Source: Candidatus Poribacteria bacterium
Lineage (GTDB): Bacteria; Poribacteria; WGA-4E; WGA-3G
Direction of reading: 5' to 3'
Assembly: GCA_965205015.1 (NCBI GenBank)
Contig: OZ242029.1
Coordinates: 5,024,001 to 5,088,000 of the forward strand
DNA: 64,000 nucleotides
A program made the position numbers and the translations under genes. The notes under the pieces are model-generated. The model did not search any database, had not been told where the DNA came from, and saw nothing but the letters and a program-made list of their open reading frames with translations. Shown here in pieces: positions 216 through 13,197 of this stretch; position 1 is the first letter of the stretch; the number at the start of each line of letters is the position of its first letter.

Positions 216-314
216 AGTTGCCTCGCTCTTGAACAACCGTCTTTCGCACGAATAGAATCGGATGTTGCTATTCTACAAGAACTTTGCCGCAAGGTCAACA
301 AAAACTGTGGATAA

Positions 315-462
315 GGCGAGGTTAGATGAAGATTAATTTTTTAATTCGGTAATATGCGGGCAGGCACAAGCCCTGGGGAAACACCCAAGCAAAAACCCCC
401 TACAATGTCTTTTTTGGGATAGGATTACCGAAATATTTATTTAAATTTCATTCAACCGCGCC
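315..462. repeat. MITE-like element with long imperfect inverted ends, enclosing an interrupted REP
   Basis: 315-353 ggcgaggttagatgaagattaattttttaattcggtaat is an imperfect inverse of 424-462 attaccgaaatatttatttaaatttcattcaaccgcgcc. Confidence 0.6.
356..404 (-). repeat. GTAG-type REP hairpin interrupted by a 21-bp insert (376-396)
   Basis: Removing 376-396 gives gcgggcaggcacaagccctgcccctaca, 26/28 identical to the uninterrupted copy at 13033-13060. Confidence 0.8.
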
Positions 463-479
463 AACGGGGAATGTAAGCA

Positions 480-507
480 TCGGGAATCGGAGTTCCCTCC
501 TACAGAA
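480..507 (-). repeat. GTAG-type REP element
   Basis: tcgggaatcggagttccctcctacagaa is the exact 28-bp reverse complement of 28803-28830. Hairpin gggaa/ttccc with GTAG at its foot. Confidence 0.85.
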
Positions 508-535
508 AAGCTAAATGCTCTATGTGGATAAAGCA

Positions 536-1381
536 CTAAAAAGGTGAGTCTTGGGCTTGTGTATTTTCTGCTTGCGCGTCACTCGAAGCTGCAGTCTCTT
601 GATTCGCGGATTCCTCAGATTCAGGGACTTCGCTCTCCTGTGCAGCCGTTGTTAATTGCTTTACACGCTCGCAGAGTTCATCTAACAACTGTGGTGAGGT
701 TTCCGCCGCTTTCAGTTCCGCAGAAAGCTGCGTCCACTGCATCTCGGTCATATCGTTCCGAGATTCCACACCATATTTACGTTTGATGTAATTCCAGAGA
801 TCCGCCTTATCGACACCTTTTCCTTCAAGAGGTCCCGCCAGATTGTTCGCGATAGCAAAAGCCGCTTTTTGGGCGTTAGCGATATTTCCAGCGCCCTGCT
901 GTAACCGCGGTTGTTGCGCCGTATTACCACTCCCCGCTTTTCGGTTCAGGTAGAAATTCAGGACCTCGCGGATGACCGGCACGGGGATCAACTGTTTAAT
1001 TGCGTTACGCTGCGCTTTATGAATCGCTTTGGTGAAGGCGAACGGATCGGCGCGTCCGCCAGCCATCTTCAGTTGCTCATAAGCACCGTAACGAGAGGAA
1101 CCGGTGATTGTATCGACGGCTTTCGCAGTCGCAATCCAAGAATGCTCGCGCTCCTCATAATCAATTTCTTCGATCTGGATACCGCCCCGGCGATTTGCGG
1201 CTTCGTTAATACCGGCTAAAGTCAACCCTTCAACAGTACGTCCGCCCTGTTTGAAGGAGTAGACATAATCCTGAATCGTCTGTCCAGTCATCAACTCAAT
1301 GATGGCCTGGTCATCCACCTGATCGACAACTTCATATTCTGCGGTAACTGGTACCATTTCGTTCTTTTTTTCTTCAGCCAT
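536..1381 (-). CDS. Putative Rad52/Sak-like single-strand annealing protein
   Basis: N-terminal domain YVYSF..VEGLT..G..EAA, then beta-strands, then helix DPFAFTKAIHKAQRNAIKQLI, resembling the Rad52/22 K-A-x-x-x-A-x-K/R helix. Q-rich linker, small helical domain (LWNYIKRKYGVESRNDMT), acidic tail ending in PF. RBS ggagg. Confidence 0.55.
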   Translation of the reverse strand: MAEEKKNEMVPVTAEYEVVDQVDDQAIIELMTGQTIQDYVYSFKQGGRTVEGLTLAGINEAANRRGGIQIEEIDYEEREHSWIATAKAVDTITGSSRYGAYEQLKMAGGRADPFAFTKAIHKAQRNAIKQLIPVPVIREVLNFYLNRKAGSGNTAQQPRLQQGAGNIANAQKAAFAIANNLAGPLEGKGVDKADLWNYIKRKYGVESRNDMTEMQWTQLSAELKAAETSPQLLDELCERVKQLTTAAQESEVPESEESANQETAASSDAQAENTQAQDSPF

Positions 1382-1453
1382 GATATCCTCCGATTTCTAA
1401 ATATATAATTAGTATAACATATCTTTAGATATATATCAAAAAAAAATGCTATT

Positions 1454-2266
1454 TCATTCATCGTCGGCAATGCCCGTCGTAATTTCGATCTGTACTCCAT
1501 CTGTTACAATGCTTTCAACGTAGAGCGTGAATGTATACATCTGATGGTTCTCGTATTTTTGAAGTTTGGAAGGAAAGAGACCTTCCCCTGCAACATCATC
1601 TATAATCCAAAATGTCACATTTCTATTGTTTGTGTCAAGTGTCATCGCGCCTGAATAATTTTTTACCCATTCCGGGTCTACATCATCTCCAATGCCCAGC
1701 AGTTCATTTAGTCTTTTAAGTGAAACCGTCTCATTTTGAAGACGCACTGTTTTTCCGACATACCTCTGACCCCCAGCGACAATCTGCTCAAGCGTCGTGT
1801 CGAGCACCTCAATATCCGCTTTCGCGGTGTGTTCAGGGACATCAGCCCAGATAGTGAAGAAACGCTCGCCATCTGCGGCTGTGTCTCCGGAAATGTCTTT
1901 TATTAGAAGTGTAAAAGTGTAAGTGGTATGCCCCCGAATATGTCGTAGACCACTCTCCATGTAATTTAAATAATAGTGGCGCACAAACTGCGGGTCAGAG
2001 TCGGTGATGAAAAAACGGACTGTCTTGTGATGCGTAAACAATTCTAACCTTGGTGGGTCCCCATCAGCACTCGGATAAATTCTGCCAGCAGCGGTAATCG
2101 TAACCTTCCGTCCCTTGTACTTTGAGTTGATGCCATTTACTTCAACATCGTTGATAATATCGGTGAGGGTGCCAAGTTTGACGCTGGGGGATATCCGATG
2201 AAATTTTGCACATCCTCCAAAGATAGTAATGGCAAAACATGCACATAAAGATGTAAAAAGTTTCAT
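1454..2266 (-). CDS. Hypothetical lipoprotein with two tandem OB-fold-like repeats
   Basis: Lipobox-like FGGC. Internal repeat: TLTDIIN...KYKGRKVTI...VRFFITD...TYTFTLLIKDI versus TTLEQIV...RYVGKTVRL...VTFWIID...MYTFTLYVESI. Confidence 0.6.
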   Translation of the reverse strand: MKLFTSLCACFAITIFGGCAKFHRISPSVKLGTLTDIINDVEVNGINSKYKGRKVTITAAGRIYPSADGDPPRLELFTHHKTVRFFITDSDPQFVRHYYLNYMESGLRHIRGHTTYTFTLLIKDISGDTAADGERFFTIWADVPEHTAKADIEVLDTTLEQIVAGGQRYVGKTVRLQNETVSLKRLNELLGIGDDVDPEWVKNYSGAMTLDTNNRNVTFWIIDDVAGEGLFPSKLQKYENHQMYTFTLYVESIVTDGVQIEITTGIADDE

Positions 2267-2277
2267 GTTTTTTTAAT

Positions 2278-2389
2278 TGGGACTTACGCAATTTTCCATG
2301 AAATGCTCCATATTGCGCCAGTGGCGAGGTTAGGAGGGAAACACCCAAGCAAAAACACCTCGCCAGCGGGACGGGCTGCGTAAGTCCTG
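2278..2389. mobile_element. MITE with GGACTTACGCA terminal inverted repeats, containing an interrupted REP
   Basis: tgggacttacgca (2278-2290) and tgcgtaagtcctg (2377-2389), flanked by ttaat on both sides (2273-2277, 2390-2394). Internal hairpin tggcgaggtt/aacctcgcca is interrupted by the 21-mer at 2336-2356. Confidence 0.7.
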
Positions 2390-2618
2390 TTAATTATACC
2401 TTGCGGGAGAATAACGTGAGTTTGAATGTTTGACGCACCTTCTTTATATCCGCCTGCGTGTTTTTGCAAACGCTAAAATCCAATGCGAAGAAAGTATTTC
2501 TGCGTATTGTTGCAGGCTACGTGTCTGGTAGAAAGTTGTAAAGTGTTCCAAAATCTGTGAAGTTGGGCAAGAAAGTCAGTAAAGTATTTTGGTTTAAGAA
2601 TTATAACGACTTCCATTT

Positions 2619-3980
2619 GTCACTTACCCCCATTTTTTTTCGAGAGTAGATTGTAGTTGATGTAGTCAGGTTTTTCTGTGAGAAAGTCAGTCAGTGAGTG
2701 GGTCCGAAAAGTGGATCCCCTCTGGCACCTATCTCGGTGAAAAAGGAGATAAGAAAGTGTTGGTTCCATAAGTCGGTGAGCACGCGTTTGATAATAGTAA
2801 TAACAGAAAAAGTTTTTCTGTTATTACTATTATATGCCCTCTGCCAATGCGTAGAGGCGACCTTCTCGTAACTGATAAACAGCAATCCATAAGCGAGGCA
2901 GGCACATAACCAAAGGACCTCCAGACGCGCTTGTGTCGGTTTTTTCAAGACGAGTTTACCAAATCCGAAGCACGACTTTATATCTCGAAACCCGTGTTCA
3001 ATCTGCATGCGGCGTTTGTAGCAGTGATGTATCTGATGTCCACTGAGGCGATTGGAGATAAGATACATCGGGTCTTTGAAGGTCTCATCTCTGAGGATAT
3101 AGAGTTGAAGCGGTATCTGCTCCTGCGCCTGATAAAGGATATGCCGATACCAGCCCGCTTCGAGGTCATCAAGTTTCTTCAGACTCCCATCATGCCGGAT
3201 ACCGACATTTCTCGCAACACGCATCACGAACGGGATATCCCGTGCCTTGAGAAACTTGATGACGTATCGCGCACGCCCAAAACCACGGTCAAACACCAGA
3301 ACAGGTCGTTGTTGATGCCGCGACACCACCCCTAAAGCCTCTTGATAAACATGGACACAGAAGTATTGGATAATCTCATTATGACTCTTATAGATACCCT
3401 CGTGAAGCTGGTGATCGCTATAGATGAACCAAAAGACAGGGATCGCACGATGCCGAAACGGGATCGAAACAACAAGGGCTTTCCACCCGGCAATCAGAGA
3501 CGTCTCATCAACGAGCAAATACAGATGAGCACCCGCATCCTTGAAAAACCAACCCACAACCGACACGAACCACGCTTCTTTGAGCGCATCAATCGGCAGT
3601 GGGGTGTCAAGGAAACGCAGAAACCTTTTCTGTTTCGACTTCTCCCGCTTGACGACGAGCGACAAACGCGACGCAACTTCATTGATCCGAAACGTCGGGG
3701 CAACACTGATCGCTATCAAGACCAATACCAGATTCCGAAAAACCGGTTTTTTCATACCAACAGACTTGAAGATTTCTCCAAAACGTGTTATCATCGTTTC
3801 TGGATTTACCCGTTTTGGGTATCTCTTTTTCATAAAATACCTCCTTACATGTTTTGTAAAATGCGTTTACAAACAGTTGCTGTAAGGAGGTATTTTATCA
3901 TAAACCCACTGAGTTTCTCACACTTTTTACAACTAAAACCTTTCACCACAAACCTTCAGAAAAAAATGGGGGTAAGTGAC
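2619..3980 (-). mobile_element. Complete insertion sequence, IS4-like (DDE_Tnp_1), 1362 bp
   Basis: 21-bp perfect TIRs gtcacttacccccattttttt (2619-2639) and aaaaaaatgggggtaagtgac (3960-3980). 9-bp target duplication cttccattt (2610-2618, 3981-3989). Confidence 0.92.
2691..3833 (-). CDS. IS4-family DDE transposase
   Basis: LVDET, FDRGF and YKRRMQIEHGFRDIK (YREK signature) motifs. Lies inside the TIRs. Confidence 0.9.
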   Translation of the reverse strand: MKKRYPKRVNPETMITRFGEIFKSVGMKKPVFRNLVLVLIAISVAPTFRINEVASRLSLVVKREKSKQKRFLRFLDTPLPIDALKEAWFVSVVGWFFKDAGAHLYLLVDETSLIAGWKALVVSIPFRHRAIPVFWFIYSDHQLHEGIYKSHNEIIQYFCVHVYQEALGVVSRHQQRPVLVFDRGFGRARYVIKFLKARDIPFVMRVARNVGIRHDGSLKKLDDLEAGWYRHILYQAQEQIPLQLYILRDETFKDPMYLISNRLSGHQIHHCYKRRMQIEHGFRDIKSCFGFGKLVLKKPTQARLEVLWLCACLAYGLLFISYEKVASTHWQRAYNSNNRKTFSVITIIKRVLTDLWNQHFLISFFTEIGARGDPLFGPTH

Positions 3981-4048
3981 CTTCCATTTAACATGTCAAA
4001 TTATATGGGAAACCCATCCAATTCGCTGAAAAACGCCACTCGATAAAC

Positions 4049-4077
4049 TTGACCACCAATCCGAATTCTGCTATAAT
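4049..4077 (+). promoter_or_regulatory. Sigma70-type promoter for the xylG-tsaE-GT4 operon
   Basis: TTGACC-17 nt-TATAAT with an extended TG. Confidence 0.7.
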
Positions 4078-4110
4078 AATCGTAAACCGAGCATCGGAGA
4101 TTGACGAACA

Positions 4111-5733
4111 GTGACAACCCCTCTTCTCCACATGCAAGCCATTACCAAAGATTTTCCCGGCGTGCGCGCCTTAGATGACGTCTCTTTTGAAGTACATCCG
4201 GGTGAAATCCATGCCCTGTGTGGAGAAAACGGGGCGGGCAAATCAACGTTGATTAAGATACTCGGCGGTGTCTATCCGTACGGAACTTACGAAGGACACC
4301 TGAACATCAATGGAAACGCGCAGCAATTCTATAGCGTGCGGGATGCAGAACGTGCTGGAATCGCCGTCATCCATCAGGAACTGGCACTTATTCCAGAAAT
4401 GACGGTCGCTGAGAACATCTACCTCGGCAAAGAACCGTGCCACTTCGGCACTATTAACAGGCATCGTCTCTACCACGAAGCAGGCGAACTCCTTTCGCAG
4501 TTTGGATTGACGATTCCACTGCATAAATCCGTCCATGAACTCGGGATCGGACAACAACAACTCGTAGAAATCGCGAAGGCTTTAGGACGTAGCTTGCAAG
4601 CCAACAGCGAAGCGTCAAGGAGTGCCTTGTTACTCGTGCTGGACGAACCGACAGCCGCTCTGACCGAAAGCGAAGTAGACATCCTTCGGCAGATTCTGAC
4701 CCAACTCCGGGAAAAGGGGGTCGCCTGTATCTACATCACCCATAAACTCAAGGAGATTTTTCAGATTGCTGACCGAGTAACGGTACTACGAGACGGTAAA
4801 GCAGTTGCAACGCACTCCATTAAATCATCTGAATGTACCGAAGAAGTACTCATTTCACAGATGGTCGGACGCGAACTAACCGCCCTGTTTCCAAAACGGC
4901 GAACGCCCTCTACTGATGAAAATGGGGCACGTCAAGAAGATGTAGCACTCCGAGTAGAAAACTTAAACACCTATCCATTGGAACCTCCTCAGCTGAAAGA
5001 TATCAGTTTCGAGGTACGACGCGGGGAAATCCTCGGAATCGCAGGTTTGATGGGCGCGGGAAGGACAGAATTGATCAGTACCATTTTCGGTGCGTATGAG
5101 GGTAGGCAGAGTGGCGAAATCGTTATAGACGGTACCACCGTTCAGATTCACGCGCCACTCGAGGCAATACAGCACGGAATGGCACTCGTTAGCGAAGATC
5201 GGAAACGCTACGGTCTTCTTTTAGACGTGGATGTCGTTCGCAACATGACGCTTGCGAGTCTCAATGTGTCGTCAGGCATCACATCACACGGAATCATTAA
5301 CGAAAACACGGCACTCGAAAAAAGCGAGCATTACGTGGATTCCCTCCAGATTAAGACGACTTCACTTGAAGCTCCTGTGAACCACCTCAGCGGCGGCAAC
5401 CAACAGAAAGTCGTTCTCGCGAAATGGTTGATGACACATCCGAAGGTGTTATTTCTTGATGAACCGACACGCGGGATTGATGTCGGTGCGAAGGCAGAAA
5501 TTCACACGCTGATGGCAGAACTTGCGCAAGCGGGTGTCGCAATTGTGTTTGTCTCCTCTGAACTCCCAGAAATCCTTGGCATGAGCGATCGGGTCATAGT
5601 GCTACATGAAGGCAAAATCACGGGTGAATTTATCAACGATAACCTGACACAAGCGGACATTTTGCGATGTGCCGCTGGTAATTATGAGCTCCAAGCAAAA
5701 ACACCCGCCTCACCGAACCGCAAGGTAAATTAA
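4111..5733 (+). CDS. xylG: Monosaccharide (CUT2) ABC transporter ATP-binding protein, XylG-like
   Basis: Two ABC domains: GENGAGKST, LDEPT, degenerate GLMGAGRTE, LSGGNQQK, LDEPTRGIDVGAK. GVYPYGTYEG is typical of XylG/GguA. Confidence 0.8.
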   Translation: MTTPLLHMQAITKDFPGVRALDDVSFEVHPGEIHALCGENGAGKSTLIKILGGVYPYGTYEGHLNINGNAQQFYSVRDAERAGIAVIHQELALIPEMTVAENIYLGKEPCHFGTINRHRLYHEAGELLSQFGLTIPLHKSVHELGIGQQQLVEIAKALGRSLQANSEASRSALLLVLDEPTAALTESEVDILRQILTQLREKGVACIYITHKLKEIFQIADRVTVLRDGKAVATHSIKSSECTEEVLISQMVGRELTALFPKRRTPSTDENGARQEDVALRVENLNTYPLEPPQLKDISFEVRRGEILGIAGLMGAGRTELISTIFGAYEGRQSGEIVIDGTTVQIHAPLEAIQHGMALVSEDRKRYGLLLDVDVVRNMTLASLNVSSGITSHGIINENTALEKSEHYVDSLQIKTTSLEAPVNHLSGGNQQKVVLAKWLMTHPKVLFLDEPTRGIDVGAKAEIHTLMAELAQAGVAIVFVSSELPEILGMSDRVIVLHEGKITGEFINDNLTQADILRCAAGNYELQAKTPASPNRKVN

Positions 5734-5737
5734 AAAA

Positions 5738-6238
5738 GTGGAAAACAGAAACGAAACGTTTAAAACAGAAAGCCCAGAGGAAACCCAGGCATTCGGAGAA
5801 AAATTGGGCAAAACGCTCAAGCAGGGAGATGTCATTGCCCTCGTCGGCGACCTCGGCACGGGTAAAACCTGTTTGACACAAGGCATTGCGCGCGGTGTCG
5901 GTATCGCGTCGGATGCAGTCGTCAACAGTCCTTCCTATATCCTGATTAACGAGTACAATGGGGCAATACCGATCTACCATATCGATCTGTACCGCCTCGA
6001 AAATAGTGAGGAGATCGCCGAACTCGGACTCAGTGAATATATGGAAGGCGATGGAATTTGCATTATTGAGTGGGCAGAACGGATGACAGACGCATTGCCC
6101 GATACCTGTATCAAGATACACATAACATTAGCAGCAAGCACCTCACACAGCAATGACGAAACTCACATGTCAATGTTCCAAAGTCCTGAAGATGAAAACA
6201 TCCGACACATCGAAATTCAATATCCTATATCTCGATAG
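5738..6238 (+). CDS. tsaE: tRNA threonylcarbamoyladenosine biosynthesis ATPase TsaE
   Basis: GDLGTGKT P-loop, VNSPSY, YHIDLYRL, IIEWAE. Confidence 0.95.
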   Translation: MENRNETFKTESPEETQAFGEKLGKTLKQGDVIALVGDLGTGKTCLTQGIARGVGIASDAVVNSPSYILINEYNGAIPIYHIDLYRLENSEEIAELGLSEYMEGDGICIIEWAERMTDALPDTCIKIHITLAASTSHSNDETHMSMFQSPEDENIRHIEIQYPISR

Positions 6239-7367
6239 CGGTTCGGGCATCGGCGGTGGGCAACGGAGTCTCCTACTCCTGCTACACCTATTAGACAAGG
6301 ATCGTTTTACACCTTTCGTGGGATGCCTCGGTGATAGTCCTTTCGCCGCGGCGGTAGGAAAGACAGAGGCAAACGTCGTCCCCTTGGCTCTACCCGCCGC
6401 GCACAACAAAACCGATAAGGTCCGACGATTTACGTTCCGCGATCTGCTTGAAGATTTCCGGCAGCTTGGGGTTATCCTCCAACTTCATCGGATGGTAAAA
6501 CGGTATGCGATCGACCTCATTCATGCGAACTCGCTTTCGGTGGCACTGCTCGGCGGTATCGTTGCCAGGCTAAACCGTATCCCCATCCTGATGCACAAAC
6601 GCTACGCGACTTCCTACGGCATTCTGGATCGGATTTGCGAAAGATTTTTGCACCGCGTGATTCTCGTTTCGGAGGCAACCCGCTGGAATTTTGCGCCTAC
6701 AGCAAAACAGACGTTAATCTATAATGGCGTCGATTTAGACGCTTTTCAAGCGTCCGCAGAAGAGGTGGAAACCCTCCGATCAGAACTCCTTCCCGATGCA
6801 TCTGATGCCTCAATCGTCACGGGAGTCGTGACTCGGATTACACCAGAGAAAGGTATCCATTTTTTAGTGAGAGCAATAGCAGACCTCAAAGGAAAAATAG
6901 ACAGCAAACTGCTGATCGTTGGCGGTCCTTACTTCCAAAAAGATATTGACTATATGGAGGAACTTAAACAAGAGGTTACAGATTTAGGCGTTGAAGACTC
7001 TGTCATCTTCACTGGATTTGTGTCGGATACACGGGTGGTTACAAGCCTCCTTGATATCGTATTGGTGCCCTCTATTATTCCAGAGGCATGCCCGCGCACC
7101 ATTATTGAAGCAATGGCGGTCGGCAAACCGGTCATTGCCACACCACTCGGTGGAAGCAAGGAACTCGTCACCCCCGAAACAGGGGTCTTAGTGCCACCTG
7201 AAGACGCCTCGGCGATTGCGGATGCTATCGCAACACTCGCAACCCATCGAGAACGATTGAAAGCAATGGGTGAAGCCTCCCGCAACCGTGCTGAGCAGTT
7301 ATTCAGCAGCGAAAAGAACACAGCATTGACGGAGGCTGTCTACACTGAATTGTTAGCCGTACGATAA
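6192..7367 (+). CDS. Glycosyltransferase family 4 (GT-B)
   Basis: GIGGGQRS, LIYNGVD, RITPEKG, PEACPRTIIEAMAVGKPVIA. Start taken at ATG 6192 (track ORF begins 6153); overlaps the tsaE 3' end. Confidence 0.9.
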   Translation: MKTSDTSKFNILYLDSGSGIGGGQRSLLLLLHLLDKDRFTPFVGCLGDSPFAAAVGKTEANVVPLALPAAHNKTDKVRRFTFRDLLEDFRQLGVILQLHRMVKRYAIDLIHANSLSVALLGGIVARLNRIPILMHKRYATSYGILDRICERFLHRVILVSEATRWNFAPTAKQTLIYNGVDLDAFQASAEEVETLRSELLPDASDASIVTGVVTRITPEKGIHFLVRAIADLKGKIDSKLLIVGGPYFQKDIDYMEELKQEVTDLGVEDSVIFTGFVSDTRVVTSLLDIVLVPSIIPEACPRTIIEAMAVGKPVIATPLGGSKELVTPETGVLVPPEDASAIADAIATLATHRERLKAMGEASRNRAEQLFSSEKNTALTEAVYTELLAVR

Positions 7368-7385
7368 GAGGTCTTCGCATTCCCA

Positions 7386-7410
7386 GTAGGAGCAATCTCC
7401 GAATAGCGAC
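7386..7410 (+). repeat. Degenerate GTAG REP-like element
   Basis: gtaggagcaatctccgaatagcgac has the same GTAGGAG...CGA(C) layout as 28807-28831. Confidence 0.5.
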
Positions 7411-7479
7411 ATCTCCTGTATAACACACAGATCAACAGAATTGCATGTTTCTACTATACCGACATAGGAGTTATCCATC

Positions 7480-8496
7480 ATGAGAGGAAAAACGATTAGT
7501 CCGGGGCAAGGTGCCCAAGCGAGTCAAGGTCAGGTGAGACAAGTATCTCAACTGTTCGGTGAGGGCATCGGTGGCACCCCGGAATGGGTTGAAATCCACC
7601 GCACCAACGATGAATGGGAAGTGAAGCTCATCCAAGCCACTTTGAGCGCGCAACAGATCCGGTGCCGTCCCATCGAATTAAGAGAGGAACGCCAAACCGC
7701 TCTCCTCGTAGCCCCGGAACACGAAGTGGAAGCCATGGAACTCATAAGCCGTATTGACGCAATCGTTACGGATAACGAAATGGCGACGCAAGCCGAAGAA
7801 ACAGCGGAAGCACTCAAACAACGCGATATGACTGTCCCTCAGAAAGATACGCATCAACACGCGGATCCCGGTGATTCAGCAGAACTCGTCTTCGCCGAAC
7901 GTGAAGGTATCGGCAGTGTCGTCTATATGGCAGGACAGGGATACGAACTCCGTGTCGGTCCAGAACCCTACGTCATCGTTCCAGAGCGCGATTGGGAGGA
8001 GTTCACAGACTTTAGTGCGCAACGCCAAGAGTTCGTGATCCTCCTCCGCCACGAATACCCCGATCTCTTCGAGTGGATTCAAGACGGGAAACTCCTCGCA
8101 GAATTCATCCGTCTCATCGAGATGACGTACCAAGAAGGCGCGCCGCCGCTCCCGCATCGAGCCAGTGCCGCAACTGACGCTGACGAGCTCGATGCGACGC
8201 CTTACCATCCGCTTGCCCAATTGAGTCTCACTGTCGCCGTGATTTCGCTCATTGCCGTGCTTTTTCAGATTCCGTGGCAGATCAACCTTGTGTTGGCGGT
8301 CGTCGCTGTGGCATCAGCAGTCGTCGCGAAATACCAGATCGATGTTAGCGACGGGGCATCCACAGGTGTTCCCATGGCGCTGAGTGCGATTGTGCTTGCG
8401 TGTCTTGTTGTCGTTTTTGCGTGGTGGCTGAGCCAGCGTCCGGAGCCGGTAGCACCAGAGAGACCCGCCACTCGTGAGACGATTGAGGATCGGTAG
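7480..8496 (+). CDS. Hypothetical membrane protein, N-terminal DUF2007-like domain, three C-terminal TM helices
   Basis: WVEIHRTNDEWEVKLIQATLSAQQIRC...LLVAPEHEVEAMELI fits the DUF2007 pattern. Hydrophobic C-terminus. RBS aggag. Confidence 0.6.
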   Translation: MRGKTISPGQGAQASQGQVRQVSQLFGEGIGGTPEWVEIHRTNDEWEVKLIQATLSAQQIRCRPIELREERQTALLVAPEHEVEAMELISRIDAIVTDNEMATQAEETAEALKQRDMTVPQKDTHQHADPGDSAELVFAEREGIGSVVYMAGQGYELRVGPEPYVIVPERDWEEFTDFSAQRQEFVILLRHEYPDLFEWIQDGKLLAEFIRLIEMTYQEGAPPLPHRASAATDADELDATPYHPLAQLSLTVAVISLIAVLFQIPWQINLVLAVVAVASAVVAKYQIDVSDGASTGVPMALSAIVLACLVVVFAWWLSQRPEPVAPERPATRETIEDR

Positions 8497-8524
8497 CTTA
8501 CGTTTGATACCGAAAAAACAGAAG

Positions 8525-8553
8525 TTGACACTTCATGGGATATATGGTAGGGT
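8525..8553 (+). promoter_or_regulatory. hicAB promoter (copy 1)
   Basis: TTGACA-17-TAGGGT with extended TG. The same motif recurs at 11155-11183. Confidence 0.65.
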
Positions 8554-8583
8554 TAAGGGTCAAAGTGCCGCCACGGTTAGAGC

Positions 8584-8850
8584 ATGAATACACGCTTAAA
8601 CAAAAAGCACCAAAGGACATTAGAGGCTATTTTTAGCACACAAACGCCAGCAACGTTGCAATGGCGGCGGATTGAAGCCCTTTTCAAAGCACTGGGTGCT
8701 ACAAAAAAGGAGAGACGAGGCTCGGGTGTGACATTTAGGTTGAATGGAGAAACTGTCGGTTTTCACCTCCCTCACCCTCGCAAAGAGGCACATCGATATC
8801 ACATTCGTGATGCCCGAGATTTTTTGAAACGAGTAGGAATAACATTATGA
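8584..8850 (+). CDS. hicA: HicA family toxin (mRNA interferase)
   Basis: LNKKHQRTLEAIF..P..LQWRRIEALF.ALG...ERRGSGV.F.L...FHLPHP.KEA is the E. coli HicA-type pattern. Confidence 0.9.
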   Translation: MNTRLNKKHQRTLEAIFSTQTPATLQWRRIEALFKALGATKKERRGSGVTFRLNGETVGFHLPHPRKEAHRYHIRDARDFLKRVGITL

Positions 8851-9098
8851 AGACAATAACATATAAAGGATACACTGCGGAAATTATCTATAGTGACGAG
8901 GATGATTGCTTTGTTGGTCATATCATCAATATTGATGCCATTGTTGGTTTTCATGGCGATACTGACGAAGAATTGCGCGACGCTTTTGAAAACATGGTAG
9001 AACTTTACATCGAAACCCTTGAGGCACCAGAAAACGCGCCGCAAAAGCATGATGCTGGTGGTTTTTGGGCACGCCTACGTGAAGTTTTCCATCTGTAG
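8847..9098 (+). CDS. hicB: HicB family antitoxin, short form without RHH/HTH domain
   Basis: YKGYTAEI.Y..ED..FVG.I..I...V.FHGDT..EL..AF...V..Y. ATGA overlap with hicA. Confidence 0.85.
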   Translation: MKTITYKGYTAEIIYSDEDDCFVGHIINIDAIVGFHGDTDEELRDAFENMVELYIETLEAPENAPQKHDAGGFWARLREVFHL

Positions 9099-9167
9099 AA
9101 ATACCACCTTCGCTATTTACACTTGAGCGGGTTAGTTCTGGTTCACGCAAGGGAATTCTACCTATAC

Positions 9168-11126
9168 ATGGAAGGCGACCATGTGAAAAAAAGACGACAT
9201 CACTCCCACATCGGAACTGAAACGACCTCGCTCCTTCCGCCGCTCACCATCGGCGTGGCTCTGATCCTTCTCAACGCGTATTGGATCGCCTTCGTCAGTG
9301 GTATCCATCACTCCCTGAATCCTGCTTATGCCTCCCTGTTTATCGCCCCAATCGTCAACCTCTTTTTTCTCCTGTTAATCAATACACTGCTGAAACGGAT
9401 CCGTCCACAACTCGCTTTGAGCCGCGCCCAACTCCTCTTGGTCTATCAGATGTTGGTCATGCTATGTGTCGTCTCCGGACACAACCCGATGGACTTCATT
9501 CTTGGAATCCTCGCGCATCCGTTCTGGTTCGCTACCTTTGAAAACGAATACGCAACACTTTTCCATCGGTATATCCCGACTTGGTTCACGGTTCAAGATA
9601 AAGGCGCGCTCACCGGTTTTTTTGAAGGGAACTCGACCTTATACACACCGAGACACCTACTCGCATGGATCGGTCCTGTGCTGCTTTGGTCGTTTGTCAC
9701 ATTCGTTCTCTTTTTCATCTTGATGTGCTTCAACAGCATCCAGCGTTTGCAATGGAGCGAACGGGAACGACTCAGTTATCCGATCGCACAACTCCCGATA
9801 GAGATGACGACCCCCCGCTTTTTTTCGAGAAGATTATTGTGGCTTGGGTTTAGTATCTGTGCCGTGATAGAACTCCTCAACGGACTCCACTTTCTCTATC
9901 CGTTTGTGCCGGGTGTGCCGCTTAAAATACCCGATTTTGGGGCGAAAATCTTTACGGCGAAACCTTGGAACGCGATTGGATGGTTACCGCTCTTCTTTTA
10001 TCCTTGGGTCATCGCATTGACGTTCTTTGTGCCGCTCGAACTCTCATTTTCAGTGTGGTTTTTCTTTCTATTTACAAAATTTCAGTTGATTGTCGGGAGC
10101 ATCGGCGGCTGGAAATCGCTGCAAGGGTTTCCGTATTACAATCAACAGGGAATCGGGGCATGGTTGACCCTTGGAATTCTCATCTTATGGACGAGCCGCA
10201 AGCATCTCAAGGCAGTATTTACGACGGCTTTGAAGCCTCTTGGAAACAGGGCGACCCCCGCCAGTAATGAACCGTTTCACTATCGCACGGCACTGCTCGG
10301 CATCTTGGTAGGTACTGCGATCCTCGTTATCATTTTTCAACAGGCTGGTATGTCCGTTGGAATTCTCCTCGCCTTCCTATGCCTCTATTTCCTCATGTCT
10401 ATCGCGATAACATACGCGCGGGCGGCGGTCGGTGTGCCGTATCATGAAGTCATTTGGACGCATCCGCCGCTGATGATCGTCTCGGTTTTAGGCACACGAC
10501 GGACGGGTGCGGCGAATTTGACGCTTTTCTCTTTCTTATATCCGTATGTTCGCGACAACGTCTCGCACCCAATGCCGAGTCAGTTAGAAGGGTTCAAAAT
10601 CGCCGAACGCGCCCCGGTTTCCCAGAGAAAGATGGCGATCGCTATGATAGTCGCCCTATTGGTTGCCATCCCTGTCTCTTTCTGGGCGTATTTGCACCTC
10701 ATCTATCAACACGGCGCAGTGCGAACTGAGGGGTATATTATTGGCATCGGTATTGAAACCTTTGAACGTATGCTACTCCCATGGTTACAACAGTCACACG
10801 CGACAGATAGCACGGGATTGAGTTTCACTGCGTTCGCCTCGCTGTTTACGTTGGGATTAATGTTTCTGAGAAGACAGTTTATCTGGTTCCCTTTCCACCC
10901 AACGGGTTATGCACTCGGTTTATCTGCGGGGATGGTTTGGGTCTGGAGCGCGATCTGTGTGGGTTGGATCATCAAGGCGGTTCTCCTCAAATTCGGGGGG
11001 TTACGCATCTACCGGAAGGCGGCTCCATTCTTTGTCGGCGTGGTTCTGGGTGACTTTCTGATCGGAACGTTTTGGAGTTTAGTGGGTGGGATTTTTGGGA
11101 TACCCGTCTATCGGGTTTGGTATTAA
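9168..11126 (+). CDS. Large multi-pass membrane protein (DUF6785/DUF6784-like, OPT-like peptide transporter)
   Basis: Many TM segments; QWSERERLSYPIAQLP, WFPFHPTGYA, KFGGLRIYRKAAPFFVGVVLGD. Start uncertain (ATG 9168 or GTG 9183). Confidence 0.7.
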   Translation: MEGDHVKKRRHHSHIGTETTSLLPPLTIGVALILLNAYWIAFVSGIHHSLNPAYASLFIAPIVNLFFLLLINTLLKRIRPQLALSRAQLLLVYQMLVMLCVVSGHNPMDFILGILAHPFWFATFENEYATLFHRYIPTWFTVQDKGALTGFFEGNSTLYTPRHLLAWIGPVLLWSFVTFVLFFILMCFNSIQRLQWSERERLSYPIAQLPIEMTTPRFFSRRLLWLGFSICAVIELLNGLHFLYPFVPGVPLKIPDFGAKIFTAKPWNAIGWLPLFFYPWVIALTFFVPLELSFSVWFFFLFTKFQLIVGSIGGWKSLQGFPYYNQQGIGAWLTLGILILWTSRKHLKAVFTTALKPLGNRATPASNEPFHYRTALLGILVGTAILVIIFQQAGMSVGILLAFLCLYFLMSIAITYARAAVGVPYHEVIWTHPPLMIVSVLGTRRTGAANLTLFSFLYPYVRDNVSHPMPSQLEGFKIAERAPVSQRKMAIAMIVALLVAIPVSFWAYLHLIYQHGAVRTEGYIIGIGIETFERMLLPWLQQSHATDSTGLSFTAFASLFTLGLMFLRRQFIWFPFHPTGYALGLSAGMVWVWSAICVGWIIKAVLLKFGGLRIYRKAAPFFVGVVLGDFLIGTFWSLVGGIFGIPVYRVWY

Positions 11127-11154
11127 GGACTGCGGGTGGACCAGATTTTTTAAG

Positions 11155-11183
11155 TTGACACTCCAACCGGTATATGATAGGGT
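11155..11183 (+). promoter_or_regulatory. hicAB promoter (copy 2)
   Basis: aagTTGACAct...tatatgaTAGGGTtaagg matches 8522-8558. Confidence 0.65.
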
Positions 11184-11187
11184 TAAG

Positions 11188-11250
11188 GCAAAGTGGTATC
11201 AAATTAAGCGTGCCCGTAATTTTCTGGAAAAGATAAAAGTAATACCATGA
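11188..11250 (+). pseudogene. hicA: 3' remnant of a second hicA
   Basis: Reads AKWYQIKRARNFLEKIKVIP*, homologous to the hicA C-terminus AHRYHIRDARDFLKRVGITL*, with the same ATGA overlap into hicB. Confidence 0.8.
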
Positions 11251-11498
11251 AGACAATGACATACCGAGGGTATACAGTGGAAATTATCTACAGTGAAGAA
11301 GATGAATGCTTTGTCGGGGATGTTATCAATATTGATGATATCATTTGTTTCCACGGTGATACCGATGAAGAATTACGCGTTGCTTTTGAAGGCGTGGTAG
11401 ATCTCTATCTGGAGGCACTGGAGGAACCAGAGAACCCGCCACAAAAACACTTTGCGTGGCGGTTTCTATCGCGTCTACGGCAAGCCTTCCACTTGTAA
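11247..11498 (+). CDS. hicB: Second HicB antitoxin (orphan)
   Basis: 83 aa, 58/83 identical by hand alignment to 8847-9098. Confidence 0.85.
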   Translation: MKTMTYRGYTVEIIYSEEDECFVGDVINIDDIICFHGDTDEELRVAFEGVVDLYLEALEEPENPPQKHFAWRFLSRLRQAFHL

Positions 11499-11558
11499 AA
11501 GCAGAAGGTTACTCGGCTCAGTACACGAACAAAACCATGAGAATAAGGAATTTTACCG

Positions 11559-12248
11559 GTGAAGACATGTATCATTGTTTTTGCTAAGAATCCGGTGCCG
11601 AACCAAGTCAAGACGCGGCTCGTCCCACCCCTCTCACCGGAACAAGCGGCGACAGTGTATACGGCGTTTCTCACAGATGGGTGTGACACACTCGCCAAAC
11701 TTCCCGAGGTGGACCGCATCATCGCCTATACACCGGCAGGAGCACAATCCGATTTACAAGGGCTTATCAGAGACGATGCCATTTACATCCCACAAATGGG
11801 GGCTGACCTCGGGGAACGGCTCGCCTCGGCAACACAGTGGGCAATTGAACAGGGATATACAAAAATTTTACTCGTCGGGTCCGACAGTCCGACACTACCG
11901 ATTGCTTATGTCACAAAAGCATTCACACTGCTCGACTCGCGTGACGTCACCATCGGACCGAGTACAGACGGTGGCTATTATCTCATCGGCTTTTCGGCAA
12001 CGAACATAGCGACGACCGTCCCGTTTATTTTTCAGGAAATCGCATGGAGCACGGCAGATGTCTTTCAGCAAACAGTGGCACGTATCCGCTCGCTAAAGGG
12101 AACCTTAGGACTCTTACCACCGTGGTATGATATAGATACGGCTGCAGATTTGGCGTTCTTGCACGCTCACATCTCGGCGATGCGACTCGCGGGCGAAACA
12201 GTAGCAGCCGTCAGAACAGAATCACTATTGACAGAACTATTTTCGTAA
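11559..12248 (+). CDS. DUF2064/TIGR04282 family CofC-like transferase
   Basis: IVFAKNPVPNQVKTRL, QMGADLGERL, LVGSDSP, IGPSTDGGYYLIG, WYDIDTAADL. Confidence 0.85.
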   Translation: MKTCIIVFAKNPVPNQVKTRLVPPLSPEQAATVYTAFLTDGCDTLAKLPEVDRIIAYTPAGAQSDLQGLIRDDAIYIPQMGADLGERLASATQWAIEQGYTKILLVGSDSPTLPIAYVTKAFTLLDSRDVTIGPSTDGGYYLIGFSATNIATTVPFIFQEIAWSTADVFQQTVARIRSLKGTLGLLPPWYDIDTAADLAFLHAHISAMRLAGETVAAVRTESLLTELFS

Positions 12249-12272
12249 ACAGTAAGGAAAGGAGACTTAATT

Positions 12273-13004
12273 ATGGGACAATTAGATGGAAAATTTGCGA
12301 TTGTAACGGGTGGAAACCGAGGCATCGGAAGAGGGATTGCGAGAGGGCTTGCTGCTGAGGGCGCGACGCTCACAATCGCCGCAAGGGATGCCGACCTCCT
12401 TGAAGAAACCGCCAACGAATTCCGCGCAAACGGCACAAAAGTGTTGACTGTCCCGACCGATGTAACGGACGAGGCACAGATCAAAGCACTCTTTGAAAAG
12501 TCGATGGACGCGTACGGGCGTTTGGATATCCTCGTCAATAACGCAGGGGCATTCAATGGGGGTCCCATCGGTGAACTCGCAACGGAAGATTGGGATTGGG
12601 TTATTAATGTGAATCTCCGTGCGCCGTTTATCTGTTCACGCGAGGCATTCGCAATTATGAAAGCACAAGGTGAAGGGGGACGTATCATCAACGTCGGGAG
12701 TATCTCTGCGCATCGCGTCCGTCCCCGAACAGCCCCTTACAGTGCGAGCAAATTCGGTATCTGGGGCTTGACCCAGGTAACAGCTCTTGAAGGTAGACCG
12801 TTCGGTATCACAGCGAGTTGTTTGCAACCGGGGAACACTTACGTAGAACGGCACCAAAACCGCCCACAAGCCCCTATGGAACCGATGATGGACGTTGACG
12901 ATCTCGCGCAAGCCGCCGTTCTCATGGCGACGCTTCCGCCGAATATCAATATGCTGGAAGCAACCGTCCTACCGATCGGTCAACTCTATGTCGGGCGTGG
13001 ATAA
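12273..13004 (+). CDS. Short-chain dehydrogenase/reductase
   Basis: TGGNRGIG, NNAG, YSASK. Confidence 0.93.
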   Translation: MGQLDGKFAIVTGGNRGIGRGIARGLAAEGATLTIAARDADLLEETANEFRANGTKVLTVPTDVTDEAQIKALFEKSMDAYGRLDILVNNAGAFNGGPIGELATEDWDWVINVNLRAPFICSREAFAIMKAQGEGGRIINVGSISAHRVRPRTAPYSASKFGIWGLTQVTALEGRPFGITASCLQPGNTYVERHQNRPQAPMEPMMDVDDLAQAAVLMATLPPNINMLEATVLPIGQLYVGRG

Positions 13005-13032
13005 CTTTTTAATTTTACCTTGCGGCGCATTG

Positions 13033-13060
13033 GCGGGCAGGTACAAGACCTGCCCCTACA
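13033..13060 (-). repeat. GTAG REP hairpin (uninterrupted)
   Basis: gggcagg-tacaaga-cctgccc followed by ctac (GTAG on the minus strand). Confidence 0.8.
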
Positions 13061-13115
13061 AGATGCCTATTTATTCCTCTGGTTTACTATTTGTCGTGTA
13101 TATCTCGAATTTGAA

Positions 13116-13197
13116 GAAACACCCAAGCAAAACACCCTGCGCCGTTGTTGCAGGCTGCGTTTTTGGTTAAGAATCGCGAGCACAACTCGCTCTTACA
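13116..13197. repeat. Repeat cluster: variant 21-mer core, TTGTTGCAGGCT repeat and a REP
   Basis: gaaacacccaagcaaaac (13116-13133). ctgcgccgttgttgcaggctgcgtttttggt resembles ctgcgtattgttgcaggctacgtgtctggt at ~2500-2529. gcgag-cacaa-ctcgc-tcttac hairpin at ~13175-13196. Confidence 0.6.

What the first reader, a model, noticed from the sequence alone, without database searches (positions are those of the whole stretch)
356..13133. An identical 21-bp oligomer inserted cleanly into unrelated REP hairpins
Seen: GGGAAACACCCAAGCAAAAAC occurs exactly at 376-396 and 2336-2356, with a near copy (GAAACACCCAAGCAAAAC) at 13116-13133. Deleting it at 376 restores a REP 26/28 identical to the empty REP at 13033-13060. 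Deleting it at 2336 restores a perfect 10-bp hairpin (tggcgaggtt-agg-aacctcgcca) of a different family. There is no target duplication. Established: GTAG REPs are substrates of HUH REP-associated tyrosine transposases (RAYT), and some IS110/IS3 elements target REPs. Inference: this is a tiny mobile unit or a fixed excision scar of an unknown element or enzyme that recognises hairpin structure rather than sequence. I know of no described 21-nt REP-parasitic insert.
Basis: partly seen in the sequence, partly recalled or inferred. Interest (0 to 1): 0.75.

Follow-up and report, generated by a model that had tools for sequence, protein, structure and literature searches.

The report
Tiny interspersed 21-base repeat module
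A 21-25-base A/C-rich DNA snippet is scattered tens to hundreds of times through the genomes of one group of sponge-symbiont bacteria (Poribacteria), in or beside many different small palindromic repeats and once in-frame inside a gene, and no known mobile element explains how it gets there.

Summary
The 21-mer is exact at 376-396 and 2336-2356, with a variant at 13113-13135. Removing it restores a REP (26/28) and a perfect 10-bp hairpin. I found two more degenerate copies (2458-2500, split; 5693-5706, half).

It is the core of a ~23-28 nt unit, (C)TGG-GGAAACACCCAAGCAAAAA-CAC(C), with longer stuttered forms. It is confined to one Poribacteria clade: 59 of 175 genomes in the phylum hold 20-222 copies.

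It lies in at least 39 sequence contexts, mostly GTAG-type REPs and small MITE-like elements. Its place relative to the hairpin is not fixed (loop, arm or outside), and helices enclosing it are not enriched. Orthologous sites are filled in some species and empty in others, including one in-frame insertion in a GH2 glycosidase gene. Junctions replace 0-6 nt between short matches (…TGG / ACC).

Its orientation follows the replichores in G004, G001 and G089, is reversed in G002 and absent in G005.

No flanking transposase, longer parent element, master locus or phage source was found. Reverse transcriptase is undetected in three genomes rich in the unit.

Best reading (0.4): a non-autonomous mini-insert placed at single-stranded DNA by a trans-acting enzyme, then multiplied by riding on its REP/MITE hosts. 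Main rival (0.33): a passive module spread by recombination.

The parts
373..399 (+). Unit copy 1: extended unit CTGG-GGAAACACCCAAGCAAAAA-CCCC, with the 21-mer core at 376-396.
356..404 (+). Host REP of copy 1, CTAC-tagged. The unit splits its 3' arm (CCTG | CCC), and the region no longer folds better than shuffles (z -0.39 and +0.19).
   Evidence: No REP of this kind is seen at this position in any of the 16 orthologous intergenic regions retrieved.
482..503 (-). Empty REP, GTAGGAGGGAACTCCGATTCCC. The orthologous REP is filled with the unit in G004 (L173) and empty in G001, G112 and G120.
2333..2359 (+). Unit copy 2, with the 21-mer core at 2336-2356.
2322..2365 (+). Host hairpin of copy 2: a 9-bp stem, TGGCGAGGT / ACCTCGCCA, with the unit in a 26-nt loop (z -2.7 and -3.0).
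2280..2387 (+). 108-nt MITE-like element with perfect 11-bp terminal inverted repeats (GGACTTACGCA / TGCGTAAGTCC) that carries the hairpin and copy 2. It is absent from all 15 loci aligned beyond the upstream gene.
   Evidence: fold z -3.5, 0 of 200 shuffles as good.
2453..2520 (-). REP of the CCTGCGCCGTTGTTGCAGGCTAC family holding a fourth copy on the minus strand. The copy is split into GTGTTTTTGC (2458-2467) and TATTTC (2495-2500) by 27 unrelated nt (2468-2494).
   Evidence: Of the 11 syntenic loci L167-L177 the orthologous REP is fully filled in 2, filled with a 1-nt deletion in 1, partly filled in 3, empty in 3 and absent in 2. L183 is also empty.
5693..5706 (+). Partial copy, 3' half only (AAGCAAAAACACCC), followed by the same 'caccgaaccgcaagg' repeat that follows full units in other genomes.
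13033..13060 (+). Empty REP, 26 of 28 identical to host REP 1 with its unit removed. Intact 8-bp stem.
13113..13135 (+). Unit copy 3: the 'GAA-GAAAC' subfamily with one A fewer (GAAGAAACACCCAAGCAAAACAC).
   Evidence: The AGAAAC variant is common genome-wide.
13136..13158 (+). REP CCTGCGCCGTTGTTGCAGGCTGC directly 3' of copy 3. The unit lies outside this hairpin.
   Evidence: The same arrangement occurs in 8 copies from other genomes.

Best explanation
The 21-mer is the conserved core of a clade-specific, non-coding, non-autonomous mini-insert. The usual unit is about 23-28 nt, with longer stuttered forms up to about 55 nt. I propose that it spreads on two levels.

(1) Rare primary events place it in new DNA: mostly loops, arms or feet of GTAG-type REPs and small MITE-like elements, and occasionally unique sequence. 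The insertion replaces 0-6 target bases between very short junction matches (…TGG on the left, ACC or CCC on the right) and makes no regular target duplication. I infer that this happens on single-stranded DNA at the replication fork, through a trans-acting nuclease/ligase. The HUH Y1 (RAYT / IS200-type) enzymes that these genomes encode are the most plausible candidates.

(2) Most copies then multiply passively, because the REP or MITE host that carries the unit is itself copied around the genome.

Shown: the unit's extent, copy number and clade limit; its many contexts; filled and empty states at orthologous sites; the junction anatomy; hitch-hiking; strand polarity in some genomes.

Inferred: insertion on single-stranded DNA, coupling to replication, and the identity of the enzyme.
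For: Discrete unit with constant ends in many contexts: 118 exact copies fall into 39 flank groups, with the profile.

Gain or loss in place at orthologous sites:
- the GTAGGAGGG REP beside site 1 is filled in 1 of 5 genomes;
- the CCTGCG REP shows every state from full to empty;
- G001 L178 is filled where L173 and L171 are empty (all);
- L003 is filled where L107 is empty.

Insertion into unique coding DNA: in a GH2 gene, 21 of 32 orthologues have a 40-aa segment, 5 carry +5 aa encoded by the unit, and 1 carries +18 aa. At the DNA level 5 nt are replaced by 20 nt between pre-existing CTGG and ACC.

A unit variant (ACGCCC) occurs in at least 5 different contexts within one genome.

Strand polarity: G004 62 of 81, G001 56 of 78 and G089 62 of 100 copies have the A/C strand on the lagging side of a DnaA-box array. 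In G004 the flip brackets that array within 70 kb. The polarity is much stronger than for two host REP families in the same genome (Fisher p = 2e-6 against permutation p of about 0.1), and orientation is unrelated to neighbouring gene direction (50 against 44).

Y1_Tnp genes are present in 5 of 5 genomes, and one is a typical REP-flanked RAYT. Y1 enzymes act on single-stranded DNA at the lagging-strand template (passages of 10.1101/279083).

Hitch-hiking: copy 2 lies in a TIR-bounded element that is absent from the orthologous loci, and the G109 variant rides mostly on one larger repeat.
Against: No enzyme is tied to the unit. Six Y1 loci have no unit within 1.5 kb, and the REPs flanking the RAYT in L125 lack it.

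The unit has no hairpin of its own, which known Y1 transposases need at element ends.

Junctions are imprecise: 0-6 nt are replaced, the G-run varies in length, and one case shows a 5-nt flanking repeat. That looks more like microhomology-driven repair than a site-specific cut.

Stuttered forms (10 of 20 solo right halves directly follow a full unit) fit slippage.

Polarity is not universal: G002 is reversed (18 of 56 on the lagging side, p = 0.01) and G005 shows none (27 of 59). G001 and G004 share ancestry, so they are not independent.

Which strand is leading is not secure. rpoB and the L16 operon are co-oriented with the A/C strand in 5 of 6 cases. Third-position skew gives only weak support for the DnaA-box array being the origin.

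Contig data could not show filled and empty alleles within one population.
Confidence: 0.4

Rival explanations
1. A passive mosaic module with no insertion activity of its own. The unit arose once, perhaps in a REP loop that already read …TTAGGAAACC… or in a repeat containing GGTGTTTTGTGTTTTCC. It spreads only by hitch-hiking on REP/MITE hosts, by gene conversion between paralogous repeats, and by rare microhomology-mediated template switching or repair, which would also account for the GH2 case.
For: - Junction microhomology with replaced bases.
- Empty targets often already resemble the unit's ends: TTAGGAAACC, GGGAAC, GAAAACC, CTGGAA…ACC.
- Stutter and deletion derivatives at orthologous sites.
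- The CCCCAGC variant in G109 sits on one larger repeat in 8 of the 11 copies examined.
- Copy 2 sits inside a MITE-like element.
- Alternative short and long loop variants within one REP family are already documented (passages of PMC3733652).
- No dedicated enzyme was found.
Against: - The unit's ends are the same across 39 unrelated contexts, which template switching does not predict.
- The GH2 target shares only 3-4 nt with the unit on each side.
- The same REP family is hit at two positions and in both orientations.
- The unit's replichore polarity exceeds that of its hosts.
- One variant occurs in at least 5 contexts in one genome.
Confidence: 0.33
2. A functional polar DNA motif, for example a binding site for a clade-specific protein acting in replication, segregation or recombination in the way Chi or KOPS do, kept by selection. 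REPs would only be tolerant landing places.
For: - Near-identical sequence in 59 species-level genomes.
- An internal direct repeat, AAACACC-N7-AAACACC.
- Two-arc strand polarity of 72-77% in G001 and G004, with breakpoints about half a chromosome apart and one at the DnaA-box array.
Against: - Polarity is reversed in G002 and absent in G005.
- Copies decay, are split or are deleted at orthologous sites.
- About 46% of the G002 matches within 2 mismatches carry exactly 2 (64 of 140).
- Copies occur inside coding sequence.
- Five genomes listed among the high-copy group hold only 0-12 copies.
- A 21-nt motif cannot accumulate by point mutation, so an insertion process is needed in any case.
Confidence: 0.12
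3. Templated addition by a reverse transcriptase or similar polymerase copying a short RNA template, as telomerase does. The terminally redundant AAACACC…AAACACC would allow re-alignment and produce the stuttered tandem forms.
For: The terminal redundancy of the unit. Tandem partial repeats with a 13-14 nt period in L072, L043, L171 and others.
Against: RVT_1 was not detected in G001, G003 and G004, each of which holds 100-213 copies; only 2 of 5 genomes match. No conserved master locus was seen. Slippage between the 7-nt repeats explains the stutter. Only PF00078 was searched.
Confidence: 0.05
4. An excision footprint: the joined ends of a larger REP-targeting insertion sequence (IS110, IS3 or IS200/605 type) left behind after it excises. 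This was one of the first reader's options.
For: REPs are known targets of such insertion sequences (established knowledge; passage in PMC3733652). There is no target duplication at window sites 1 and 2.
Against: In 1.89 Mb of Poribacteria DNA, 25 solo left halves (about 14 expected by chance) lie in unrelated, mostly coding contexts. Of 20 solo right halves, 10 are stutter copies behind a full unit. No shared longer sequence continues from a half-unit. No transposase recurs among 222 neighbouring ORFs. The window's split copy holds 27 nt of filler, not an element.
Confidence: 0.03

Closest known systems
REP / BIME / REPIN repeats and their RAYT (TnpA_REP) enzymes
   Same: High-copy, mostly intergenic and clade-specific. 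The hosts are GTAG/CTAC-tagged palindromes: CTAC lies within 25 nt downstream in 55 of 118 copies. RAYT genes with flanking REP arrays are present. BIMEs are mosaics of REPs plus extra short motifs (passage of 10.1101/279083; the named linker motifs are recalled, not checked).
   Different: The unit is not palindromic and carries no GTAG. It sits inside, across or beside palindromes of several unrelated families, and in a gene. BIME linker motifs lie between REPs of one system, not within unrelated stems.
Alternative loop variants within REP families (Di Nocera et al. 2013, PMC3733652; passages read)
   Same: Members of one REP family can carry short or long loops, up to 27 bp. REPs can lie in frame inside genes.
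   Different: Here one and the same loop sequence is shared by different stem families. It also occurs outside hairpins and without any REP, as in the GH2 gene.
IS200/IS605 single-strand 'peel and paste' elements
   Same: No target duplication. Insertion next to a very short sequence. Orientation tied to the replication fork (lagging-strand template). Y1 HUH enzymes are present in every genome tested.
   Different: Those elements are at least several hundred bp long, have subterminal hairpins, insert precisely 3' of a 4-5 nt target and encode or borrow TnpA. The unit is 21-28 nt, has no hairpin, has imprecise junctions and has no linked enzyme.
Rickettsia palindromic elements (RPE)
   Same: A small repeat found in frame inside a functional-looking protein gene (the GH2 case). 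RPEs are cited in a passage of PMC3733652.
   Different: RPEs are palindromic and about 100-150 bp (recalled). The unit is about five times shorter and not palindromic. Only one clear case inside a gene was worked out here.
Neisseria dRS3 / NIME mosaics and DNA uptake sequences
   Same: Repeats of 10-20 bp present in hundreds to thousands of copies, associated with other small repeats and hairpins, and restricted to one lineage.
   Different: dRS3 is an inverted repeat and a phage integration site. Uptake sequences arise by point mutation and biased uptake, and are not present or absent as blocks. The unit is an indel-type block with strand polarity.
Polar chromosomal motifs (Chi, KOPS) (recalled)
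   Same: Orientation skew of about 75% that switches at origin and terminus in G001 and G004.
   Different: Those motifs are 8-mers kept by selection in every strain. The unit is 21+ nt, decays, and its skew is reversed or missing in two of the five genomes tested.

Membership tests
REP (GTAG-type repetitive extragenic palindrome) | An imperfect palindrome of 20-40 bp that forms a stem-loop. | tested here: not met
   The unit alone has only a 3-bp self-pairing (GGG/CCC) in the folds. The hairpins belong to its hosts.
REP (GTAG-type repetitive extragenic palindrome) | A conserved GTAG/CTAC tetranucleotide at one end. | tested here: not met
   The unit does not contain it. It is present in the flanks: CTAC downstream in 55 of 118 copies, GTAG upstream in 23 of 118.
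REP (GTAG-type repetitive extragenic palindrome) | High copy number, mostly intergenic. | tested here: met
   100-213 copies per genome. 127 of 160 copies lie between long ORFs.
MITE | Terminal inverted repeats and a target-site duplication. | tested here: not met
   The unit has no terminal inverted repeats, and sites 1 and 2 have no duplication. The 108-nt host of copy 2 does have 11-bp terminal inverted repeats.
IS200/IS605-type single-strand element (or a derivative) | Subterminal hairpins recognised by the Y1 transposase. | tested here: not met
   The unit has none. A host hairpin is present in only a minority of copies.
IS200/IS605-type single-strand element (or a derivative) | Insertion without duplication, 3' of a fixed 4-5 nt target. 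| tested here: inconclusive
   No regular duplication is seen. On the G/T strand the target ends in G-T or G-G in most copies (from the +2/+3 positions), but 0-6 nt are replaced and one case has a 5-nt flanking repeat.
IS200/IS605-type single-strand element (or a derivative) | Orientation bias relative to replication direction. | tested here: inconclusive
   72-77% in G001 and G004 and 62% in G089, but reversed in G002 and absent in G005.
IS200/IS605-type single-strand element (or a derivative) | A cognate Y1 transposase in the genome. | tested here: inconclusive
   PF01797 matches occur in 5 of 5 genomes, but none of the six loci examined is linked to the unit.
Polar motif under selection (Chi / KOPS type) | The same strand skew relative to the origin in all members of the lineage. 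| tested here: not met
   G002 is reversed and G005 is unbiased.
Excision footprint of a larger insertion sequence | A longer element exists whose two ends equal the two halves of the unit. | tested here: not met
   None was found in 1.89 Mb. No recurrent transposase neighbour.
Retroelement-templated insert | A reverse transcriptase is present wherever the unit is abundant. | tested here: not met
   RVT_1 is absent from G001, G003 and G004. Other reverse-transcriptase models were not searched.
RPE-like in-frame genic repeat | An in-frame insertion in a conserved gene, with orthologues that lack it. | tested here: met
   GH2 gene: 21 of 32 orthologues lack the insert, 5 carry +5 aa and 1 carries +18 aa, all with open frames.

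The most novel reading that the evidence does not exclude
The ~21-28 nt unit is itself the cargo of a dedicated single-strand DNA cut-and-join (or copy-in) activity. That would make it the smallest mobile DNA unit yet described. It would be inserted at replication forks into transiently single-stranded DNA with only 2-4 nt of junction specificity, with REP hairpins as favoured but not obligatory landing sites, and it could add short peptide loops to proteins.
Probability: 0.25. Interest if true: 0.85.

Novelty: new variant of a known kind. Interest (0 to 1): 0.6.

Why it matters
Small interspersed repeats such as REPs, BIMEs and MITEs are usually treated as units that move whole. Here a much smaller block, about one-fifth the size of the smallest MITEs, behaves as a separable module. 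It is gained and lost in place at orthologous sites, is shared by unrelated host repeats, enters a protein-coding gene in frame, and in some genomes keeps an orientation that mirrors the replication forks.

If an enzyme inserts it, that enzyme would be a natural tool for writing short defined sequences into single-stranded DNA at the fork. If not, the unit is an unusually clean natural record of microhomology-driven sequence transfer between repeats.

Either way it is a lineage marker for one clade of sponge-symbiont Poribacteria and a source of genome and protein-loop variation in them. I found no description of it: two full-text searches pairing 'Poribacteria' with repeat terms turned up nothing relevant. 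Subscription journals and supplementary files were not visible to me.

Tried and rejected
- Whole genome of the window: none is held, so genome-wide work used related genomes.
- Rfam at gathering thresholds on the whole window: 0 matches.
- Exact 11+11 nt 'empty' junctions over a grid of boundaries: 0 hits in 0.95 Mb. Gapped search then found empties.
- Hairpin enclosure: exact stems of 7 bp or more in 13% of copies against 5% of controls, but enclosing helices from folding in 42% against 38%, not significant.
- GC skew in 40 sampled 20-kb windows of G001: too noisy to define replichores. Third-position skew: weak (TA3 p = 0.0035, GC3 p = 0.12, with an unexplained overall strand asymmetry).
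- Public reads: only assembled contigs were available. One X1 contig bridges site 2 in the filled state. One X1 contig carries 19 letters of REP 5' half (17 of 19 identical to 357-375) directly before position 397, which could be an empty allele of site 1 or a paralogue. X1 and X15 each have a joint skipping 354-423 with unknown letters between. None of this decides whether filled and empty alleles coexist.
- Y1 gene flanks: no unit.
- Recurrent neighbour genes: only metabolic families.
- Half-unit-ended long elements: none.
- Master locus in low-copy genomes: the copies there lie in the usual REP contexts, some on tiny contigs that may be mis-binned.
- Viral contigs: 6 hits, at about the number I estimate for chance (estimate not computed). 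Only L293 has the typical context.
- Two genome-contig hits (L028, titled Pyrinomonadales, and L106) are one homologous coding sequence and were dropped from later counts.
- Not tried: structure prediction, complex prediction, and large protein searches. There is no candidate protein to test.

Full report
**1. Observation.**
The 21-mer GGGAAACACCCAAGCAAAAAC is exact at window 376-396 and 2336-2356. No shuffle of the window gives even one match at up to 3 mismatches. Its 17-nt core recurs at 13116-13132. Removing the 21-mer in silico restores a 28-mer that matches the REP at 13033-13060 at 26 of 28 positions, and at the second site a perfect 10-bp hairpin with an AGG loop. Neither site has a flanking duplication.

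I add two degenerate copies. One is a minus-strand copy in a REP at 2453-2520, split by 27 unrelated bases. The other is a 3' half at 5693-5706.

**2. Extent, abundance and distribution.**
Of the 80 titles shown to me, nearly all are Candidatus Poribacteria MAGs. Two hits (L028, L106) are one unrelated coding sequence and were dropped.

A positional profile of 122 copies shows that conservation runs beyond the 21-mer: G-G on the left (73% and 68%, preceded by a weaker C-T) and C-A-C-(C) on the right (96%, 79%, 96%, 66%). The unit also contains a direct repeat, AAACACC-N7-AAACACC.

Five genomes hold 100-213 copies at up to 2 mismatches, against 0-1 for the reversed pattern. Across the 175 genomes of the phylum that were searched, 59 hold 20-222 copies, five genomes listed among them hold 0-12, and the other 111 hold 0-6 (my tally of the table). 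The unit is therefore an expansion in one clade.

Variants form subfamilies: AGAAAC…, …ACGCCC…, …CCCCAGC…. There are longer forms with extra 5' modules (GGGGAAATCCGCA-, GAAGAAATTGA-) and with stuttered 3' halves.

**3. Context.**
The 118 exact Poribacteria copies fall into 39 flank groups.

Many hosts are GTAG/CTAC-tagged palindromes. CTAC lies within 25 nt downstream in 55 of 118 copies and GTAG within 25 nt upstream in 23. The reverse arrangements number 3 and 11, and I estimate about 10 by chance for each.

The unit has no fixed place in the hairpin. In the window it sits in a loop (site 2; the stem stays intact, z about -2.7 to -3.0), inside an arm (site 1; the fold is lost, z -0.39 and +0.19) and just outside the hairpin (site 3). 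A helix enclosing the unit is predicted in 49 of 118 copies against 151 of 400 mismatched-flank controls (p = 0.52). The idea that hairpin structure is what gets recognised is therefore not supported.

Orientation is unrelated to the neighbouring genes: 50 <U<, 44 >U>, 17 <U>, 16 >U<. A further 33 of the 160 copies lie inside crude long ORFs.

**4. Filled and empty states.**
Joined flanks find uninterrupted relatives for 18 of 124 copies, against 2 of 124 controls.

At orthologous positions:
- L003 is filled where L107 is empty, next to a ribosome-binding site and start codon.
- The GTAGGAGGG REP beside window site 1 is filled in G004 but empty in the window, G001, G112 and G120.
- A site in G001 (L178) is filled where G004 and G112 are empty.
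- The CCTGCG REP downstream of site 2 shows a full series in the 11 syntenic loci: full in 2, full with a 1-nt deletion in 1, partial in 3, empty in 3, absent in 2. It is also empty in L183 and split in the window.

The clearest case is a conserved GH2 glycosidase gene (Pfam) close to the origin. Of 32 orthologues, 21 have a 40-residue segment, 5 have 41, 5 carry five extra residues encoded by the unit (…GKHPSKN… or …EEHPSKN…), and 1 carries 18 extra residues from a long stuttered form. All frames are open. At the DNA level the closest empty gene reads …GCCCTGG AACCG ACCG… and the filled ones read …GCCCTGG GGAAACACCCAAGCAAAAAC ACCG…. Five bases are replaced by twenty between a pre-existing CTGG and ACC.

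Across all cases the junctions replace 0-6 bases. The left edge varies (…TGG, …TAGC, …TGAA, with a G-run of variable length) and the right edge is ACC, ACT or CCC. One case shows a 5-nt flanking repeat. The insertion at window site 1 is clean.

**5. Two levels of spread.**
Copy 2 lies at the centre of a 108-nt element with perfect 11-bp terminal inverted repeats (2280-2387; fold z -3.5). This element is absent from all 15 loci aligned past the upstream gene. The REP that hosts copy 1 is not seen in any of the 16 orthologous intergenic regions. These copies probably arrived inside their hosts.

In G109 the CCCCAGC variant sits on one larger repeat in 8 of the 11 copies examined. That is hitch-hiking. 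In G001 the ACGCCC variant occurs in at least five different contexts. That points to transfer or homogenisation at the level of the unit itself.

**6. Strand polarity.**
Exact copies cluster by strand along the chromosome in G001 (n = 78, permutation p = 5e-5) and G004 (n = 81, p about 1e-4). Each genome divides into two arcs of 47-49% and 51-53% of the chromosome.

Dense arrays of 11-13 DnaA boxes within 600 nt lie next to dnaA in G001, G002 and G004. The other 47 20-kb loci have 0-4 (the box consensus is recalled). In G004 the plus-to-minus flip (2,761,725 to 2,832,388) brackets this array (about 2,785,400).

Taking the array as the origin, the A/C-rich strand is on the lagging strand in:
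- G004: 62 of 81 copies
- G001: 56 of 78
- G089: 62 of 100 (chromosome length assumed to be 5.4 Mb)
- G002: only 18 of 56 (reversed, p = 0.01)
- G005: 27 of 59 (not significant)

In the first three, the G/T-rich complement therefore lies on the lagging-strand template.

Two host REP families in G004 show much weaker clustering (p about 0.1 each, against Fisher p = 2e-6 for the unit).

Caveats:
- G001 and G004 share ancestry, so they are not independent.
- rpoB and the L16 operon are co-oriented with the A/C strand in 5 of 6 cases, which is unexpected if the array is the origin.
- Gene-strand bias (305 of 558 long ORFs leading) and third-position skew support the array only weakly.
- GC skew in the 20-kb samples was uninformative.

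**7. Search for the machinery.**
- Y1_Tnp genes are present in 5 of 5 genomes, with 3-6 matches each, and L125 is a classic RAYT flanked by REP arrays. Those REPs lack the unit, and six Y1 loci have no unit within 1.5 kb.
- RVT_1 is undetected in G001, G003 and G004.
- Among 222 ORFs next to units, the largest similarity groups (8, 7, 6, 6 …) are ordinary metabolic families.
- No longer element ends in half-units.
- Low-copy genomes show no special locus.
- Viral contigs hold the core at about the number I estimate for chance.
- Public runs are held only as contigs and could not show filled and empty alleles within one population. They gave hints only.

**8. Interpretation.**
What is shown: a discrete unit with constant ends, many contexts, gain and loss in place, an insertion into unique coding DNA, hitch-hiking on hosts, and replichore-related polarity in some genomes.

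My best reading (0.40) is a non-autonomous mini-insert placed on single-stranded DNA at the fork by a trans-acting enzyme, most plausibly of the HUH Y1 kind, and then multiplied by its REP/MITE hosts. Y1 enzymes act on single-stranded DNA, mainly at the lagging-strand template (passages of 10.1101/279083).

The main rival (0.33) needs no such enzyme: a passive module moved by gene conversion between repeats and by occasional microhomology-mediated template switching. The imprecise junctions, the resemblance of targets to the unit's ends, and the stutter and deletion derivatives all favour this rival. The constant ends across 39 contexts, the GH2 target, the two insertion positions and orientations within one REP family, and a polarity stronger than that of the hosts all favour the enzyme.

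A selected polar motif (0.12) fits the conservation, but not the reversed or missing polarity or the decay of copies. Reverse-transcriptase templating (0.05) and an excision scar (0.03) are largely excluded.

**9. Comparison and novelty.**
The unit behaves like a module of the REP/BIME world, and alternative short and long loop variants within one REP family are documented (passages of PMC3733652). It fails the defining tests of a REP, a MITE, an IS200/605 derivative, a polar motif and an excision scar (see the membership table).

I found no description of it. Searches pairing Poribacteria with repeat terms returned nothing relevant, and searches on REP/RAYT with insertion terms returned only the general REP literature. 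Subscription journals and supplementary files were not visible to me.

I rate it a new variant of a known kind, with interest 0.6. The bold reading, the smallest known mobile DNA unit, remains open at about 0.25.

Noticed in passing
L232 (G004 ~2,785,306-2,785,551), L236 (G001 ~2,347,666-2,347,930), L241 (G002 ~2,199,457-2,199,705): Very dense arrays of 11-13 DnaA-box-like 9-mers within 600 nt, many spaced 11 nt apart and in two opposed blocks, next to dnaA. In G002 most boxes read TTATCAACA instead of TTATCCACA.
   Followed up: partly
G001, G002, G004: Relative to that DnaA-box array, the L16 ribosomal-protein operon lies on the lagging strand in all three genomes, and rpoB does so in two. 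That is unusual for bacteria, and I have no explanation for it.
   Followed up: partly
G002 chromosome and its 250-kb second contig: Unit polarity is reversed relative to the origin in G002, and 15 of 17 copies on contig C2 are on one strand. The cause could be a rearrangement, an assembly error or a real difference.
   Followed up: partly
window 250-540 and the orthologous loci L167-L185: This intergenic region is hypervariable between species. It is 75-110 nt with a single terminator-like hairpin in some, and 190-450 nt packed with REPs, heptamer repeats and MITE-like elements in others.
   Followed up: partly
L171, L173, L176, L178 and many unit flanks: Tandem heptamer repeats (CAGCGGT / CAGCAGT / AACTGGT types), reminiscent of cyanobacterial STRR repeats (recalled), are abundant next to REPs in these genomes.
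   Followed up: no
L125 (G001:C1:2863423-2866767): A Y1 (RAYT-like) gene flanked on one side by at least 7 tandem copies, at 50-nt spacing, of a palindrome with GTAG in its centre (CACCCCGTAGGGGTG…), and by inverted copies on the other side. This is a textbook REPtron.
   Followed up: partly
L088:250-600: An array of a different palindromic repeat (GGTATGAATGCCTTAGGGCATTCACCGG and variants) next to two unit-bearing REPs. A 186-nt segment is duplicated 2.2 kb away.
   Followed up: no
window 2468-2494: 27 nt of unrelated sequence replace the middle of a unit copy. Orthologues in close relatives have the unit intact or partly deleted there.
   Followed up: no
L119, L064 (G002): In one MITE-like family the unit's reverse complement sits where related copies read GGTGTTTTGTGTTTTCC. 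This could be a deletion derivative of the unit or a precursor of it.
   Followed up: no
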